The notes under the pieces: generated by a model
The model's database searches: none
Told to the model about the DNA's origin: nothing
Seen by the model: only the letters and a program-made list of their open reading frames with translations
Assembly (NCBI RefSeq): GCF_051885895.1
Contig: NZ_JBJEXP010000079.1
Location: forward strand, 58,146-122,145
Direction of reading: 5' to 3'
DNA length: 64,000 bases
DNA from: Dialister sp.
Lineage (GTDB): Bacteria; Bacillota; Negativicutes; Veillonellales; Dialisteraceae
Position numbers and translations under genes: made by a program
Shown: positions 30,010-63,978 of the stretch, one piece after another
Numbering within the stretch: position 1 is the stretch's first letter
Layout: every line of letters begins with the position of its first letter

Positions 30010-30270
30010 TCAAAGAAGCAGGGAAGAGAAGAGTACCCGTGCAGGAATGGCAAAGAGAGCTCCGCTTGGTGGGAAGGAGCGCAGGATCGCATGGAGAAGA
30101 TGGCCTCTGAGCTTGATCTGCCGAATGGTGAAGCAGTCCGGGAGTCTCCCGTTACAGAGACAGGGTATCAAGGCATGTCCGGCGTACCTGCAGAGGCTTT
30201 TCCGGTGACGGAAAAGCGAAATTGGGTGGTAACACGAGTATCTCGTCCCGAAAAGGGACGGGATTTTTTT
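30010..30270 (+). ncRNA. Met T-box riboswitch upstream of metA
   Basis: Promoter TTGACT-N17-TAAAAT (29971-29999); AGTA/GAA loop-E, AGAGA bulge, specifier GAAG-ATG-G at 30100, GGGTGGTAACACG at 30224, terminator 30240-30270. Confidence 0.92.
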
Positions 30271-33659: not shown

Positions 33660-33920
33660 TTCATAAAGGCAGTGAAGAGAAGAGTACATGAAACAATCCG
33701 GCCAAGAGAGCCCCGTCCGGTGAAAAGGGGTGCGGAAGGTTTGATGGAAGATGGCCTCTGAGCCTGGTGCGCTGAATGATGAGGCGGCCCGGGAGCTCCC
33801 GTTACAGAGACAGGGTATCAAGGCGGCAGCCGGCGTACCTTATGAGATCGGTGAAGCGATTCACCGGTGAAATTGGGTGGTAACACGGTCCTCCGTCCCT
33901 TTCGGGATGGAGGATTTTTG
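33660..33920 (+). ncRNA. Met T-box riboswitch upstream of metQ
   Basis: Promoter TTGACT-N17-TATAGT (33622-33650); specifier GAAG-ATG-G at 33751; GGGTGGTAACACG at 33875; terminator 33889-33919. Confidence 0.92.
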
Positions 33921-45979: not shown

Positions 45980-46239
45980 ATGTTTTCCTCCCTGCCGTAA
46001 TGATACTTTTATTATAAAATAGGAGGAGAGGGAAAGAGTTAAAGAAATCTTAAATCTGCAGAAGGGGAAGAAAGAAAAAGCTTTCCGCACCCCTGTTTTT
46101 GGAAGGGAGGAACCTCGGGCAAGTGCGGATTTTCGCATTTCTTTTCGGAGAAAAGGAAAAAATCCCCTTTACAAATGGGGAAAGTGCATGTATACTATTC
46201 TCAACTTCAATTTTTGAATAAAGCTTTACAGCACAGCTT

Positions 46240-46466
46240 GTGCATAAAAGACAAGGAACGGAAGCGAGTGATACGGTTTCCTCTCAGAGAGCTGCCGGAA
46301 GGTGGAAGACAGCAGGAGATCCTCACAGAGTCGTCCGCAAGTCCTGTATCTGAACCGAGTAGGATATGGCGTTTGGCACCGTTACAAGGCCGCATGAGTA
46401 TAGTGCGAGGTGGTACCGCGTAGGTGTTACGCCCTGGTTGATTTTTATCAATCAGGGCGTTTTTTG
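46240..46466 (+). ncRNA. T-box riboswitch upstream of TRAP operon (specifier unresolved)
   Basis: Promoter TTTACA-N17-TATACT (46169-46197); AGAGAGCTG, CCGTTA, GAGGTGGTACCGCG at 46407, terminator 46429-46466. Confidence 0.88.
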
Positions 46467-46538
46467 TAGTATGGCAGAGGTTCCGGGCTTGATTTCAAAA
46501 AGAAAGAATACAGATGAGTTCATTTAAAGGAGGATTTC

Positions 46539-47606
46539 ATGATGGGTATGTTTAAGAGAAGTCACAAAGTAGTTTTAGCAGGTTTAGCAGCCCTTGCCAT
46601 TGCGGGCATGATGACTGGCTGCGGTATGTCATCCGGCGGCGATAAAAAGGCAGCCGCTTCCGGCAATGGGCAGAAAGTGGAATTGAAGCTGGCATACCAG
46701 CTTCCGGCGGAACATCATCTGTCCAAGAGCGTTGAAAAATTTGCCAAGGAAGTCAATGAACGGTCCAAAGGCCAGATCGACATCAAGGTGTATCCGGCAG
46801 GTCAGCTCTATAACGACCAGAATATGAACGATGCACTCATGAGCGGCGGCCTGGACATCGGCATGAACTCCACCGCCCGCTGGTCCATGGTGGTGCCGGC
46901 ACTGAAAGTGCTGGATATGCCTTTCGTTCTGACCTCCTACTCTGCTGTAGACAATGCACTGGATGGGGATCTCGGGAAAGCACTGAACCAGGAAATGGAA
47001 AAGAAGGGCGTTCATCCGCTGATCTGGGCAGACTACGGCTACGTACAGTTCTGCAACAATGTCAAGAAAATTGAAAAGCCGGAAGATTTCCAGGGCATGA
47101 AGATCCGCTCCTATTCCGAAACATCGGCAGACATCATCCAGGCACTGGGAGCATCGCCTACGACCATGAGCTCCTCTGAAGTATACATGGCAATCAAGAA
47201 CGGCACCATCGACGGCCAGTCCTCCGGCCAGACCGCAATTCTGTCCCGCAAGATCTACGAAGTGGCCAAGTACCTCACTGTGACAAACAATTCCTACGTC
47301 GAATTCCTGGTATCTATGAATGATAATTCCTGGAAGAAACTGACACCGGAACAGCAGAAGATCATCACTGACACCGCTAAGGAAATCCAGGATGAAATCC
47401 GCAAGGAAACCAAGGCGGAAGATGAACGGTGCCTGAAAGAACTGGCAGATAAAGGCATGGATGTGTATGTGATTCCGAAGGATGAAATCCACCTCTGGCA
47501 GGAAGCTACCGCTCCGGTAGTTGCCAAGTTCGAACAGGAACAGGGCGACTTCGGCAAGAAGCTGGTGGATGACTGCCTCAAAGCCAGCGCAGCATCAAAG
47601 GACTAA
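46539..47606 (+). CDS. dctP: TRAP transporter substrate-binding lipoprotein
   Basis: Lipobox MTGC, VYPAGQL, GMKIR, GTIDGQ. Confidence 0.92.
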   Translation: MMGMFKRSHKVVLAGLAALAIAGMMTGCGMSSGGDKKAAASGNGQKVELKLAYQLPAEHHLSKSVEKFAKEVNERSKGQIDIKVYPAGQLYNDQNMNDALMSGGLDIGMNSTARWSMVVPALKVLDMPFVLTSYSAVDNALDGDLGKALNQEMEKKGVHPLIWADYGYVQFCNNVKKIEKPEDFQGMKIRSYSETSADIIQALGASPTTMSSSEVYMAIKNGTIDGQSSGQTAILSRKIYEVAKYLTVTNNSYVEFLVSMNDNSWKKLTPEQQKIITDTAKEIQDEIRKETKAEDERCLKELADKGMDVYVIPKDEIHLWQEATAPVVAKFEQEQGDFGKKLVDDCLKASAASKD

Positions 47607-47752
47607 GGACCGCAGGGTGACGCCGGCGGCAGGGGAATGATTTCCGGAAACCGGAAATTGATTCACTGATTCACCGGCTCACCGGTCCATTCACTGTTTC
47701 ACCGTTTTCAACACATGTAAGAACAAAGCCAATGACAAAGGAGGGCTGTCCT

Positions 47753-48262
47753 GTGCGTTCCATCTATCATATATATGACCGTATCCTCGGTTATATTACC
47801 AATTTTGCCGCAGCCATTGCAGGGCTTGCCATTTTATTGACAGCCTTCATGATCTGCTATGAAATCATTGCCCGCAGTATTTTCCATCATCCCACCGTAT
47901 GGGTTATGGAAATTTCCACCTATCTCCTGGTGCTGGCCGGTTTCTTCGGCATGTCCTACACCATGAGAAAGAACGGGCATATTACCGTAGATTTCCTCTT
48001 CAGCCGTTTCCCGAGAAACGTGCAGCGGGGACTGGATATTGTGACGTCCATTCTCTCTCTCTTCGTCATGTATGTATGCATGACGGAATCCACCAATTAC
48101 ATGCTCATGAGCCAGGCCATGGGAGTGGTATCTCCTTCCCTGCTCCGGGTGCCCATGTGGATTCCCCAGACCTTCATGGTGATAGGGTTTGTGCTGCTGT
48201 TTCTGGAAATCATCAACCATCTTCTGGGTGATTTCTTCAAAGAAGAAAAGGAGGGGAAATAA
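47753..48262 (+). CDS. dctQ: TRAP small permease
   Basis: 4 TM, WVMEIS, GHITVD; GTG start after AAGGAGG. Confidence 0.88.
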   Translation: MRSIYHIYDRILGYITNFAAAIAGLAILLTAFMICYEIIARSIFHHPTVWVMEISTYLLVLAGFFGMSYTMRKNGHITVDFLFSRFPRNVQRGLDIVTSILSLFVMYVCMTESTNYMLMSQAMGVVSPSLLRVPMWIPQTFMVIGFVLLFLEIINHLLGDFFKEEKEGK

Positions 48263-49540
48263 ATGGTTCTGGCAGGATTCGCACTGTTTATCATCGTCCT
48301 CCTCATCATCGGCATGCCTGTGGCATTTACCCTGTCCCTGGCAGGCATTCTGGGCATTATCCAGTTCGTGGATATGTCCACACTCTCCCAGGTGCCGGTG
48401 ATTGCCTTCAAGACGCTGAACTCCTATGTATTGACTTCTGTACCTCTTTATATCCTCATGAGCCAGATCATGCTGACCGGACGGGTAGGCAGCGGCCTTT
48501 TTGACCTGGGCAGCAAATGGATGGGTCATCTGCCCGGCGGCCTGGGGATTGCCACCATTTTCGCCTGTGCTATTTTTGCCGCAATTTCCGGCTCTTCTGT
48601 AGCAACTGCCGTAACCATCGGCGCCATGGCGATTCCGGAAATGCTGAAGCGTGGCTATGACAGGAAACTGGTGGTCGGCTCGGTTGCTGCCGGCGGTACG
48701 CTGGGTATCCTGATTCCGCCGTCCATTCCCATGATTCTCTACGGCACCATTACCGATGAGTCGGTGGGCAAGCTTTTCATGTCCGGCGTGGTGCCGGGGG
48801 TGCTCCTGACACTGGCCTTTGTGGCTTATATCGTTTTTGCCTCCTGGAATAAACCCAGGGAGGAAAGAGCGTCCCATGAAGCTAAAATGAAAGCGCTTCG
48901 GGAAAATGTGTGGGGTCTGCTCCTCCCGGTGATTATTATCGGCGGTATTTATACCGGCATCTTTACCCCTACCGAAGCTGCTGCCGTAGGTACGGTATAC
49001 GCTCTGATCATTACCTTCTTCGTTTACCACAGCATTACGGTGGAGGATATGCCTGCCATTCTCCGGGCCACCATCAAGACATCCTGCATGATTTTTGCCA
49101 TTATGGTAGGCGCCATGCTTTTCGGCTATATCCTCACCGTGCTCCAGGTGCCTCAGGCACTGATGTCCCTGGTGACGGACGGACACTTCAACCGCTGGAT
49201 CGTCCTCATCGGCATCAACATTGTTCTTCTTATTCTTGGCTGTGTGCTGGAAACGGTATCCATTATCCTCATCACCCTGCCTATGCTCTACCCGGTAATC
49301 AAGGCCCTGGGCTTTGATCCCATCTGGTTCAACGTAGTGCTCCTGATCAACATGGAACTGGCCCTCATCACACCGCCGGTGGGCATGAACCTCTTTGTAA
49401 TCAAAGGCATCAGCGAGGACAGCACCATCCAGGATATTATTTCCGGTGCCGCACCCTTTGCGTTCATTATGATTCTGGAAATCGTACTGCTCTGCTTCTT
49501 CCCGGGCATTGCCACCTGGCTGCCTTCTGTATTGAAATAA
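48263..49540 (+). CDS. dctM: TRAP large permease
   Basis: SGSSVATA, GTLGILIPPS, FTPTEAA, TPPVGMNLF. Confidence 0.95.
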   Translation: MVLAGFALFIIVLLIIGMPVAFTLSLAGILGIIQFVDMSTLSQVPVIAFKTLNSYVLTSVPLYILMSQIMLTGRVGSGLFDLGSKWMGHLPGGLGIATIFACAIFAAISGSSVATAVTIGAMAIPEMLKRGYDRKLVVGSVAAGGTLGILIPPSIPMILYGTITDESVGKLFMSGVVPGVLLTLAFVAYIVFASWNKPREERASHEAKMKALRENVWGLLLPVIIIGGIYTGIFTPTEAAAVGTVYALIITFFVYHSITVEDMPAILRATIKTSCMIFAIMVGAMLFGYILTVLQVPQALMSLVTDGHFNRWIVLIGINIVLLILGCVLETVSIILITLPMLYPVIKALGFDPIWFNVVLLINMELALITPPVGMNLFVIKGISEDSTIQDIISGAAPFAFIMILEIVLLCFFPGIATWLPSVLK

Positions 49541-49544
49541 GTTT

Positions 49545-49576
49545 AAAAACCGGTACGGCACCGTACCGGTTTTTTT
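49545..49576 (+). terminator. Terminator after TRAP operon
   Basis: AAAAACCGGTACGG-CA-CCGTACCGGTTTTT. Confidence 0.85.
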
Positions 49577-49677
49577 GGCAGAAGGGAAGAATTCCGACCT
49601 CAATGCATAGAATTTCCATAGGTGAAAAAGTCCCCTTTTCATGTTTCTTTTTCTATGATACAATTACATTCATCTAC

Positions 49678-49771
49678 GGCGATGGAGTTCGCCGGGCTTC
49701 GGGAAGGCTTTTCCCGCCGAATGCTCTTTGAGATGATGACTCCTGTTCCTTTTGGGAACAGGAGATTTTTT
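49678..49771 (+). ncRNA. Fluoride riboswitch with terminator platform
   Basis: GGCGATGGAGTTCGCC ... AATGCT ... TGATGACTCCT; terminator CTCCTGTTCC/GGAACAGGAG+T run overlaps the aptamer 3' end. Confidence 0.93.
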
Positions 49772-49784
49772 TGTGGAGGGAACA

Positions 49785-50174
49785 ATGAATGGATCTTATG
49801 TATTCCCGGCGCTGGTAGCCCTGGGCGGCGCCCTGGGAGCGGTGTGCCGCTATTTTATGACCATGGTTATGGCAGGCTGGATGGGTACGGCCTTTCCTTT
49901 CGGCACCCTGGCAGTCAACGGGGCCGGTTCGTTTCTGATCGGCATTTTAAGCGTCCTTTTTTCCCGGGTGTATCCTCTGCCGGGAGCGGCGGCTTTCCTG
50001 ATTACCGGATTTCTGGGAGGACTGACCACCTTTTCTTCTTTTATGAATGAGACGCTGCAGTTCTGGGCCGGCGGACGCTGGATGGAAGGACTGGGATATA
50101 TTTTCCTCCAGCTGGCCTGCGGCCTGGTTTTTGTGGGACTGGGGTATTTCCTGGCAGAAAAACTGTTTTTCTAA
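49785..50174 (+). CDS. crcB: Fluoride channel Fluc/CrcB
   Basis: GGALGAVCRY, GTLAVN, GFLGGLTTFSSF. Confidence 0.95.
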   Translation: MNGSYVFPALVALGGALGAVCRYFMTMVMAGWMGTAFPFGTLAVNGAGSFLIGILSVLFSRVYPLPGAAAFLITGFLGGLTTFSSFMNETLQFWAGGRWMEGLGYIFLQLACGLVFVGLGYFLAEKLFF

Positions 50175-63661: not shown

Positions 63662-63764
63662 GGGAATCTCTGGTTCCGCAGGAAGGCGCGGATTCGATCT
63701 GCTCTTTTCCGCAGCCCTTTCTTGACAGAAAGAGGCCGGCTGATTATAATATCGGGTAAATACA

Positions 63765-63978
63765 CCAAATGCAATGAACAGGATTGAGCTTGGCCGGAAA
63801 TAACAGAGAGCCGGGAGGATGGAAACCGGTATGGAAGGCGGGCGTGTCCCCTGGGAGCAAAGGGCTGAATCGGTTTTTCCGGAGTAAGCCCGGCGTCAGT
63901 CCGCGTTAAGGATATGGAGTATAATGCAGGGTGGTACCGCGCTCACAGCGCCCTTGTCCGATGGACAGGGCTTTTTTT
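63765..63978 (+). ncRNA. T-box riboswitch (controlled gene lies beyond window)
   Basis: Promoter TTGACA-N17-TATAAT (63722-63750); AGAGAGCCG, GCGTTA, GGGTGGTACCGCG at 63929, terminator 63950-63978. Confidence 0.88.

What the first reader, a model, noticed from the sequence alone, without database searches (positions are those of the whole stretch)
46240..49540. T-box riboswitch controlling a TRAP transporter
Seen: a complete T-box with terminator directly upstream of dctPQM. The specifier region CTCACAGAGTCGTCC could be read as CAG, GAG or CGT; the antiterminator bulge is TGGT. Known: T-boxes respond to uncharged tRNA, while TRAP systems mostly import organic acids. Inference: imports an amino acid or its keto/hydroxy-acid precursor, so the specifier would predict the substrate of an uncharacterised TRAP SBP.
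Basis: partly seen in the sequence, partly recalled or inferred. Interest (0 to 1): 0.55.

Follow-up and report, generated by a model that had tools for sequence, protein, structure and literature searches.

The report
Valine T-box controls TRAP importer
A tRNA-sensing RNA switch set to valine controls an organic-acid importer in a gut Dialister, and comparison with relatives shows that this importer works with a carbon-carbon lyase as a conserved, uncharacterised supply route for valine and leucine.

Summary
A full-length T-box leader (window 46245-46466) with promoter, UGGU bulge and terminator precedes dctP-dctQ-dctM (46539-49540). No promoter-like site lies between them.

The specifier is GUC (valine, 46330-46332), not CAG, GAG or CGT. 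Three lines support this: the structural alignment, calibration on this genome's own T-boxes (valS, ileS, thrS, leuC, metA/Q, ilvD), and about 28 orthologous Dialister leaders. In those leaders the neighbouring bases vary but GUC-G is fixed, with one GUA and one CUC exception. A matching tRNA-Val(GAC) with A73-CCA is encoded.

New context: the same TRAP family sits behind T-boxes across Negativicutes, usually with a Leu (CUC) specifier. It is usually fused to a petal-death-protein-like lyase, and sometimes to leuA-leuCDB. In Dialister the lyase is a separate operon with its own Val T-box (window 63765-63970). The lyase occurs only in TRAP-carrying genomes. Every Leu-specifier genome has leuCDB. 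Four genomes without leuCDB carry Val specifiers and keep the lyase.

Best inference, unproven: the TRAP imports 2-isopropylmalate, and the lyase cleaves it to 2-oxoisovalerate for valine.

This scan had already found the Leu version on other DNA (e1-3944159, e1-4367809). I found no published description.

The parts
46168..46196 (+). Promoter-like site TTTACA-17-TATACT of the T-box/TRAP operon
   Evidence: 10 of 12 matches; the -35/-10 block is conserved in the orthologue alignment
46245..46466 (+). T-box leader (Stem I, Stem II region, antiterminator/terminator)
   Evidence: Rfam RF00230, 71.4 bits, model 1-219; 27 of 41 consensus pairs show compensatory changes in 23 leaders
46251..46342 (+). 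Stem I with K-turn-like base, specifier loop, AGAGA bulge and GGUGGAAG distal loop
   Evidence: cmscan alignment; the closing helix CGGA/UCCG covaries with CGGG/CCCG, 10 double changes
46330..46332 (+). Specifier codon GUC (Val), followed by unpaired purine G46333
   Evidence: Position rule calibrated on valS, ileS, thrS, leuC, metA/Q and ilvD leaders; GUC-G is fixed while the preceding triplet varies in orthologues
46407..46436 (+). Antiterminator with 7-nt bulge UGGUACC (46411-46417); UGGU (46411-46414) pairs with the A73-CCA end of tRNA
   Evidence: tRNA-Val(GAC) ends ...A-CCA
46429..46466 (+). Intrinsic terminator; its 5' arm overlaps the 3' strand of the antiterminator
   Evidence: 14 pairs, 7 GC, U run; 12 covarying pairs
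46539..47606 (+). dctP, lipoprotein-type TRAP solute-binding protein (lipobox Cys28 invariant)
   Evidence: Pfam PF03480 1e-85; TIGR00787; AF2 model pLDDT 84.5, Z 35 to 4p47; invariant G27-C28-G29
47607..47731 (+). dctP-dctQ spacer with a strong hairpin
   Evidence: MFE -44.8 kcal/mol, z -2.98, 0 of 200 shuffles fold as well
47732..48262 (+). dctQ, small TRAP membrane subunit
   Evidence: PF04290 4e-29
48263..49540 (+). dctM, large TRAP membrane subunit
   Evidence: PF06808 5e-106
49545..49574 (.). Palindromic hairpin ending the operon
   Evidence: 13 pairs, 6 GC
63722..63970 (+). Second Val T-box of the same regulon. Perfect promoter 63722-63750, specifier GUC 63846-63848, UGGU 63932-63935, terminator 63952-63970. 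It leads the petal-death-protein-like lyase gene, which starts just past the window end (G000:C79:122339-123235)
   Evidence: RF00230 63.5 bits; sequence; promoter and terminator; lyase tblastn and family search

Best explanation
Shown: this is a transcription-attenuating T-box riboswitch. Its specifier loop presents GUC to the anticodon of uncharged tRNA-Val(GAC), and its UGGU bulge pairs with the tRNA's A73-CCA end. When valine charging is low, the antiterminator forms instead of the terminator at 46429-46466, and RNA polymerase reads into dctP-dctQ-dctM.

Shown by comparison: the operon is one half of a two-operon valine regulon. The other half is a petal-death-protein-like C-C lyase behind its own Val T-box at the window's end. 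In other Negativicutes the two halves form a single Leu-controlled operon, in places fused to leuA-leuCDB.

Inferred: the TRAP imports a 2-alkylmalate, most likely 2-isopropylmalate made by neighbouring organisms. The lyase cleaves it to 2-oxoisovalerate plus acetate, and transamination gives valine. Where LeuCD/LeuB exist, the same cargo also gives leucine. This Dialister lineage has lost ilvB, ilvC and leuA, so it depends on such salvage. The specifier moved by one base from CUC to GUC because valine is the product that always depends on this route.
For: T-box anatomy and score.

Specifier rule calibrated in the same genome: valS GUC-A, ileS AUC-A, thrS ACC-G, leuC CUC-G, metA/metQ AUG-G, and ilvD with tandem GUC-G and AUC-A leaders.

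Orthologues: the triplet before the codon varies (AGA, GAA, AAA, AGC, CGU) but GUC-G is fixed. G018 has the synonymous GUA with compensating helix changes.

tRNA-Val(GAC) with A73-CCA is encoded.

The TRAP family lies behind T-boxes in Megamonas, Schwartzia, Phascolarctobacterium, Acidaminococcus, Sporomusa and Peptococcaceae, all with CUC. The lyase lies between the T-box and dctP in about 20 loci, and five loci carry leuCDB-lyase-dctPQM. The one cluster I annotated fully reads T-box(Leu)-leuA-leuCDB-lyase-dctPQM.

In the family, the lyase is found only in TRAP-positive genomes: 36 of 36, against 39 TRAP-positive genomes in total. All Dialister lyase leaders read GUC.

All 6 CUC genomes in the family have leuC. 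G018, G045, G046 and G047 lack both leuC and leuB, carry Val specifiers and keep the lyase.

The lyase's nearest solved relative is the petal death protein 1zlp (E 8e-66), with the P-K-R-C-G-H loop kept.

G000 lacks ilvB, ilvC, leuA and cimA but has leuCDB under a Leu T-box.
Against: No ligand or enzyme assay exists. The cargo is inferred from gene context and from the reaction type of the lyase family. The fold search cannot discriminate ligands, since all hits are at 16-31% identity.

In species that have leuA in the same cluster, importing 2-isopropylmalate and co-expressing a lyase that destroys it looks wasteful under leucine control.

In Dialister the importer answers to valine only, so leucine starvation alone would not induce uptake for LeuCDB.

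The only class-IV aminotransferase is ambiguous between D-amino-acid and branched-chain types.

The phyletic correlations involve related genomes and MAGs of 65-99% completeness.

G000's K-turn 3' strand reads CAA instead of the usual xGA.
Confidence: 0.5

Rival explanations
1. The TRAP imports 2-oxoisovalerate, or branched-chain 2-oxo acids in general, and these are transaminated directly to valine (or leucine). The lyase has a separate or accessory role, for example reversible condensation of 2-oxoisovalerate with acetate to feed LeuCD/LeuB in place of LeuA.
For: TRAP binding proteins for aliphatic 2-oxo acids are known (TakP, RRC01191; from my own knowledge). 2-Oxoisovalerate is the common precursor of Val and Leu, which would fit the Val/Leu specifier toggling. 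The cluster T-box(Leu)-leuA-leuCDB-lyase-dctPQM reads naturally as 'import the LeuA substrate'. Dialister keeps leuCDB without leuA, so a lyase running in reverse could fill that gap.
Against: With 2-oxoisovalerate as cargo, valine synthesis needs no lyase. Yet the lyase is kept under Val T-box control in four genomes that lack leuC and leuB, and in all Dialister. A lyase draining 2-oxoisovalerate toward leucine would be expected to sit under Leu control, not Val control.
Confidence: 0.22
2. The TRAP imports L-valine itself, or branched-chain amino acids generally, as one more T-box-controlled uptake system.
For: Most T-box-controlled transporters predicted so far carry the cognate amino acid (Wels et al. 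2008, PMC2494555). Some DctP-family proteins bind amino-acid-like ligands: ectoine and pyroglutamate entries appear.
Against: The genome already has a Val-T-box LivJ-type binding protein and a Val-T-box BrnQ carrier. This reading does not explain the strict co-occurrence and co-regulation with a C-C lyase, or the fusion to leuCDB.
Confidence: 0.08
3. The TRAP imports 2,3-dihydroxyisovalerate to feed the orphan IlvD of this genome.
For: G000 has ilvD under Val and Ile T-boxes but no ilvB or ilvC.
Against: ilvD is present in only 8 of 53 family genomes, whereas the TRAP is in 39, including closed genomes without ilvD. ilvD is also followed 14 nt later by its own PanS-like BASS carrier in the same T-box operon.
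Confidence: 0.04
4. The leader is a decayed or non-functional T-box, or it reads another codon (CAG, GAG, CGU), and the TRAP is an ordinary dicarboxylate importer expressed independently.
For: The Rfam score is below the gathering threshold; the K-turn and S-turn motifs are non-canonical in G000.
Against: Equally low scores are seen for this genome's aaRS T-boxes. The leader is conserved with compensatory changes across genera. The invariant T-box core and terminator are present. No alternative promoter was found. The alternative codons are not conserved.
Confidence: 0.04

Closest known systems
Val-specific T-box leaders (e.g. valS leaders of Firmicutes; Rfam RF00230)
   Same: Stem I with specifier loop, AG bulge and distal loop, the GGUGGUACCGCG core with UGGN bulge, and competing antiterminator/terminator. 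It carries the same GUC specifier as this genome's own valS, brnQ, livJ-like and ilvD leaders.
   Different: It controls a TRAP organic-acid importer rather than a synthetase, a biosynthetic gene or an amino-acid carrier. It has no Stem III, a variant K-turn (CAA) and variant S-turn (AGCGA/AGA), and scores below Rfam's cut-off.
Leu T-box - lyase - TRAP operon of other Negativicutes
   Same: Orthologous DctPQM (50-62% DctP identity), orthologous lyase (53-58%) and a homologous leader.
   Different: The specifier here is GUC (Val) rather than CUC (Leu). The lyase is split off into its own operon with its own Val T-box, 17 kb away. The host lacks leuA, ilvB and ilvC.
DctPQM-type TRAP transporters (Rhodobacter capsulatus DctPQM; SiaPQM; 2-oxo-acid binders TakP/RRC01191)
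   Same: Three-component architecture, the DctP fold (Z 31-35 to solved TRAP binding proteins) and an invariant Arg190 near the position of the carboxylate-binding Arg of SiaP.
   Different: The binding protein is lipid-anchored; identity to any binding protein with a known ligand is at most 31%; control is by a tRNA-sensing RNA rather than by a two-component or GntR/IclR-type regulator.
Petal death protein of carnation (PDB 1zlp), an isocitrate-lyase/PEP-mutase superfamily lyase that cleaves alpha-hydroxy and alpha-keto carboxylic acids (Lu et al. 2005, title cited in PMC7609661)
   Same: It is the best solved match to the partner lyase (E 8e-66, against 4e-49 for methylisocitrate lyase), and the catalytic loop P-K-[KR]-C-G-H is conserved.
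   Different: The partner here is bacterial, T-box controlled and linked to leu genes. Its substrate is untested. That the petal death protein takes (2R)-alkylmalates is from my memory, not from a paper I could read here.
T-box-guided transporter annotation (Wels et al. 2008, PMC2494555)
   Same: The same logic applies: the specifier predicts what the transporter is for.
   Different: That survey lists permeases and ABC systems for the amino acids themselves. In that paper 'TRAP' means the trp attenuation protein. I found no paper combining T-box and TRAP transporter.

Membership tests
T-box leader (RF00230) | Match to the covariance model at or above Rfam's gathering score (93 bits) | tested here: not met
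   71.4 bits, full length, E 1.3e-15. Of the ~39 T-boxes in this genome, 22 also fall below 93, including the valS, ileS, serS, glyQ and pheS leaders, so the cut-off is too strict for this lineage.
T-box leader (RF00230) | Stem I with specifier loop: codon followed by an unpaired purine next to the closing helix | tested here: met
   The 3' side of the loop is A-G-A-GUC-G, then UCCG pairs with CGGA. The closing helix covaries. The rule recovers the cognate codon for 10 or more leaders of known genes.
T-box leader (RF00230) | Stem I distal platform (AG bulge plus distal loop) that stacks on the tRNA elbow | tested here: met
   CAGAGAG and GGUGGAAG are aligned to the model's AGAGA and UGGUGaaA and conserved in all orthologues.
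T-box leader (RF00230) | K-turn (GA motif) at the base of Stem I | tested here: inconclusive
   The 5' strand AAGGAA is present. The 3' strand is CAA in G000 and its closest relatives, but GGA, UGA or GAA in other Dialister. This is a variant at one sheared-pair position; its function is untested.
T-box leader (RF00230) | Conserved T-box sequence with 7-nt bulge UGGN-ACC in an antiterminator that competes with a terminator | tested here: met
   GGUGGUACCGCG at 46409-46420. The antiterminator 3' strand (46428-46436) lies within the terminator 5' arm (46429-46441).
T-box leader (RF00230) | Cognate tRNA with matching anticodon and discriminator base encoded in the genome | tested here: met
   tRNA-Val(GAC) at G000:C25:51905-51981, 3' end A73-CCA.
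T-box leader (RF00230) | Uncharged-tRNA-dependent antitermination | not testable with these tools
   Needs in vitro transcription or in vivo reporter assays.
DctP-type TRAP transporter | The three components DctP (PF03480), DctQ (PF04290) and DctM (PF06808) in one operon | tested here: met
   TIGR00787 at 235.8 bits, above the 175 cut-off.
DctP-type TRAP transporter | Binding-protein fold with the conserved carboxylate-binding arginine | tested here: inconclusive
   The fold is confirmed (Z 35.4, rmsd 2.0 over 311 residues to 4p47). Arg190 is invariant in 34 homologues and lies within one residue of SiaP Arg147 by the alignment offset. No residue-level structural superposition was possible.
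Isocitrate lyase / PEP mutase superfamily C-C lyase (partner enzyme) | Catalytic loop K-[KR]-C-G-H with the general acid/base cysteine | tested here: met
   The query's P-K-R-C-G-H-M aligns to P-K-K-C-G-H-M of 1zlp.
Methylisocitrate lyase PrpB (TIGR02317) | Score above the equivalog cut-off (354 bits) | tested here: not met
   263.9 bits and 272.7 bits for the g3 orthologue. The gene is linked to leu genes and T-boxes in the loci examined; prp genes were not searched for.

The most novel reading that the evidence does not exclude
A previously undescribed salvage pathway for branched-chain amino acids. A TRAP transporter imports 2-isopropylmalate released by other gut microbes or present in the diet. 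A petal-death-protein-like '2-isopropylmalate lyase' converts it to 2-oxoisovalerate plus acetate, in effect LeuA run backwards without CoA, to make valine. LeuCD/LeuB make leucine from the same cargo. The controlling T-box has switched its specifier between Leu (CUC) and Val (GUC) at least twice, according to whether LeuCD/LeuB are present.
Probability: 0.38. Interest if true: 0.82.

Novelty: new variant of a known kind. Interest (0 to 1): 0.62.

Why it matters
TRAP binding proteins and isocitrate-lyase-superfamily enzymes are large families in which most members have no known substrate. Here a T-box specifier, a strictly co-occurring lyase and the physical fusion to leu genes together narrow the cargo to a very small set of compounds that can be tested in a day by DSF and a coupled enzyme assay.

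If the 2-isopropylmalate reading holds, it adds a new cross-feeding currency in the gut: a pathway intermediate rather than an end product. It would also be a new route to valine, and it would explain why Dialister keeps leuCDB and ilvD without the upstream enzymes.

Independently of the cargo, the lineage offers a natural experiment in T-box evolution. A one-base specifier switch (CUC to GUC) occurred at least twice and tracks gene content. An ancestral operon was also split into two units that each kept a T-box with the same new specifier.

Tried and rejected
1. The default Rfam scan at gathering threshold found no T-box in the window. The permissive scan did, and the genome-wide search showed that sub-threshold scores are normal here.

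2. They are not at the structural specifier position, and CAG and GAG are not conserved.

3. Dihydroxyisovalerate import to feed the orphan IlvD is rejected. ilvD is in 8 of 53 genomes against 39 for the TRAP, and ilvD has its own PanS-like carrier.

4. '2-Oxoisovalerate import plus the lyase acting as a CoA-free isopropylmalate synthase' is kept only as a rival, because the lyase is under Val control and is retained where leuCDB is absent.

5. The PDB sequence search and the fold search with the AF2 model confirm the fold but cannot identify a ligand.

6. The search for a clear branched-chain aminotransferase found only one class-IV enzyme, below both the Dat and IlvE cut-offs.

7. Literature searches for T-box plus TRAP transporter, isopropylmalate lyase/transport, and Dialister BCAA auxotrophy found nothing on point. 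Vitreschak et al. 2008 and the petal-death-protein and PA4872 papers are not held.

8. The leuC/TRAP co-occurrence (leuC is never found without the TRAP) is partly confounded by a small-genome clade that lacks both, so I gave it little weight on its own.
Full report
OBSERVATION

The window is G000:C79:58146-122145 of a 2.16-Mb, 93%-complete assembly. Its DctP is 98% identical to that of Dialister succinatiphilus YIT 11850.

The default Rfam scan reported only a tRNA and a fluoride riboswitch. A permissive scan of 46100-46560 gave RF00230 (T-box) at 46245-46439, covering the model end to end, at 71.4 bits and E 1.3e-15. The score is below Rfam's gathering value of 93. The whole-genome search finds about 39 T-boxes, of which 22 are below 93. 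Those include the leaders of valS (74.4), ileS (73.4), serS (75.5), pheS (78.9) and glyQ (65.2), identified. The deficit comes mainly from the missing Stem III and from variant K-turn and S-turn motifs.

A promoter-like site (TTTACA-17-TATACT, 46168-46196) and an intrinsic terminator (14-bp stem 46429-46460 plus U run) are the only such sites between 45900 and 46700. The genes at 46539-47606, 47732-48262 and 48263-49540 are DctP, DctQ and DctM. A 13-bp palindromic hairpin at 49545-49574 ends the operon, and the fluoride riboswitch that follows has its own promoter-like site.

THE SPECIFIER

In the cmscan alignment the 3' side of the specifier loop is A-G-A-G-U-C-G, followed by UCCG, which pairs with CGGA on the 5' side. 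From my own knowledge of T-box structures, the specifier is the triplet just before the last unpaired purine, as in the glyQ Stem I crystal structure, where the loop reads GAA-GGC-A. That gives GUC (46330-46332).

I calibrated the rule on this genome's own leaders (sequences, gene identities):
- valS: GUC-A
- ileS: AUC-A
- thrS: ACC-G
- leuC: CUC-G
- metA and two metQ: AUG-G
- ilvD: two tandem leaders, GAA-GUC-G and A-AUC-A
- livH: tandem CUC and AUC
- separate LivJ-like binding proteins: GUC, CUC and AUC
- brnQ: GUC-A

DctP orthologues occur in 28 of 37 other genomes of the genus, and every one whose upstream sequence could be read carries the leader. The triplet before the codon varies (AGA, GAA, AAA, AGC, CGU), but GUC-G is fixed. 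There are two exceptions. G018 reads GUA, a synonymous Val codon, with compensating changes in the flanking helix. G034 reads CUC.

RNAalifold on 23 leaders from several families finds compensatory changes in 27 of 41 pairs. These include the 4-bp helix that closes the specifier loop, where the pair next to the loop switches between A-U and G-C in 10 sequences. In the codon column, position 1 toggles G/C while UC is invariant. The genome encodes tRNA-Val(GAC) ending A73-CCA, the partner of both GUC and UGGU.

WIDER DISTRIBUTION

A search of species-representative genomes returned 80 loci. T-box cores lie upstream of the TRAP in Megamonas, Schwartzia, Phascolarctobacterium, Acidaminococcus/Acidaminococcaceae, Sporomusa ovata, a Peptococcaceae MAG and the sister genus g3. 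Outside Dialister the specifier position reads CUC (Leu) in nearly all of them. Many Selenomonas and Mitsuokella loci have no T-box within 3.5 kb.

In about 20 loci a roughly 290-aa gene of the isocitrate-lyase/PEP-mutase superfamily lies between the T-box and dctP. Five loci carry leuC-leuD-leuB-lyase-dctPQM as one cluster. The Sporomusaceae cluster (L231) starts with a Leu T-box (CUC-A, 87.5 bits) followed by leuA at 704-747 bits. G058 has an equivalent T-box, but I did not annotate its ORFs.

THE PARTNER LYASE IN THIS GENOME

G000 has one orthologue (55% identity) at C79:122339-123235, just beyond the window. Its leader is the T-box at window 63765-63958. That leader has a perfect TTGACA-17-TATAAT promoter at 63722-63750, specifier GUC at 63846-63848 closed by CCUG/CAGG, UGGU at 63932-63935 and a terminator at 63952-63970. 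In every Dialister lyase leader that could be read the codon is GUC. The next base is C, G or A, and the closing helix covaries between CCUG and CCCG.

The lyase is found in 36 family genomes, and all 36 carry the TRAP; 39 genomes carry the TRAP in total. In G009, G011 and G032 the lyase lies about 2.6 kb from ilvD, and in G029 it lies next to dctPQM. Its closest solved relative is the carnation petal death protein, 1zlp (E 8e-66), ahead of methylisocitrate lyase (4e-49) and 2,3-dimethylmalate lyase (2e-45). The P-K-R-C-G-H loop is conserved. It scores below the PrpB equivalog cut-off.

SPECIFIER AGAINST GENE CONTENT

In g3 the operon is T-box-lyase-dctPQM. G040-G044 read CUC and all have leuC. 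G045, G046, G047 and G051 read GUC. Of these, G045-G047 lack both leuC and leuB, as does the GUA-bearing Dialister G018. All six CUC genomes of the family have leuC.

The switch between Leu and Val therefore happened at least twice. A Val specifier, with the lyase retained, is what remains when LeuCD/LeuB are gone. These genomes are related and some are incomplete (83-97%), so this is a pattern, not a statistic.

METABOLIC BACKGROUND

- ilvC was not found in any of the 53 family genomes.
- ALS-like genes occur in 17, but not in G000.
- ilvD occurs in 8.
- In G000, ilvD is followed after 14 nt by a PanS-like BASS carrier under the Val and Ile tandem T-boxes.
- G000's leucine operon is T-box(Leu)-leuC-leuD-leuB, with no leuA or cimA anywhere. 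The only HMGL-like domain is in a 1146-aa pyruvate-carboxylase-sized ORF.
- One class-IV aminotransferase is nearly universal in the family but is ambiguous between Dat and IlvE.
- Named Negativicutes outside the family do have leuA-like genes and leuC.

MECHANISM

Shown: the leader has every sequence element of a transcription-terminating T-box set to tRNA-Val, and it is the only visible promoter-proximal control of dctPQM.

Inferred: the cargo. The lyase is kept under Val control even without LeuCDB, so it seems to be needed to turn the cargo into a valine precursor. Lyases of this family cleave 2-hydroxy-2-alkyl-dicarboxylates into a 2-oxo acid plus a carboxylate. The natural compound that would yield 2-oxoisovalerate in this way is 2-isopropylmalate. 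It is also the substrate of LeuCD and is a substituted malate, a typical type of DctP ligand. This single cargo explains the leu-gene fusion, the Leu/Val toggling, the orphan leuCDB of Dialister and the strict lyase-TRAP pairing.

Weak points: co-expressing leuA with a lyase that undoes its product is awkward, the Dialister importer responds to valine only, and there is no biochemical evidence at all.

My confidence:
- T-box with a Val specifier: about 0.9
- The lyase-TRAP pair as a joint Val/Leu precursor supply: about 0.75
- 2-Isopropylmalate as the cargo: about 0.4
- 2-Oxo-acid import: about 0.2
- Amino-acid import: about 0.1

COMPARISON AND NOVELTY

The RNA is an ordinary T-box by architecture. 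What it controls is unusual. No paper in the searchable library links T-boxes with TRAP transporters or describes isopropylmalate uptake or cleavage. A gut-microbiome amino-acid reconstruction lists no leuBCD-only or ilvD-only variant. Two earlier notes of this scan, on other genomes, describe the Leu version (e1-3944159) and the lyase between leuB and a TRAP (e1-4367809). My results agree with both and add three things: the Val-specifier form, the split into two operons, and the correlation with leuCDB.

Noticed in passing
window 63722-63970 (gene continues beyond the window at G000:C79:122339-123235; L186): A second Val (GUC) T-box with a perfect sigma-70 promoter leads a petal-death-protein-like lyase. 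An additional terminator-like hairpin (L186:1343-1375, 15 pairs plus U run) lies between the T-box terminator and the lyase start codon and is unexplained.
   Followed up: yes
G000:C33:49-3183 (L101:49-3183): Tandem Val (GUC) and Ile (AUC) T-boxes control ilvD plus a PanS-like BASS-family carrier, in a genome and family with no ilvC. This suggests salvage of 2,3-dihydroxy acids (or a related precursor) for Val and Ile.
   Followed up: partly
G000:C69:5116-8190 (L185): A Leu (CUC) T-box controls leuC-leuD-leuB, with no leuA or cimA detected anywhere in the genome. The isopropylmalate half of the leucine pathway has no endogenous source of substrate.
   Followed up: partly
whole genome G000: About 39 T-box leaders in 2.16 Mb. 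At least five LivJ-like binding proteins have their own Val, Leu or Ile specifiers, livH lies behind tandem Leu and Ile leaders, and brnQ lies behind a Val leader at C79:52557-52755, just upstream of the window. More than half score below Rfam's gathering threshold, so standard annotation would miss them.
   Followed up: partly
window 49636-50174: A fluoride riboswitch (49669-49752, 35.9 bits) with its own promoter-like site (49636-49664) and terminator (49740-49764), followed by crcB (49752-50174). An ordinary arrangement, directly downstream of the TRAP operon.
   Followed up: partly
window 47607-47731; L105:4566-5385; L106:4566-5650: The dctP-dctQ spacer forms a strong hairpin here (-44.8 kcal/mol, z -3.0). 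In D. succinatiphilus YIT 11850 and UMGS61 it is expanded to 800-1090 nt by arrays of short GC-rich hairpin repeats (REP/MITE-like).
   Followed up: partly
window 30012-30253 and 33663-33903: Two Met (AUG) T-boxes, leading metA and a MetQ-type lipoprotein. Both are just below Rfam's gathering score (88.5 and 92.5 bits) and are therefore absent from the default scan.
   Followed up: partly
L110, L113, L123 (genome contigs records): Contigs with Dialister-type T-box-TRAP loci (83-86% DctP identity) sit in MAGs labelled Paludibacteraceae, Fusicatenibacter saccharivorans and Ruminococcus bromii. This is probably binning contamination or mislabelling.
   Followed up: no
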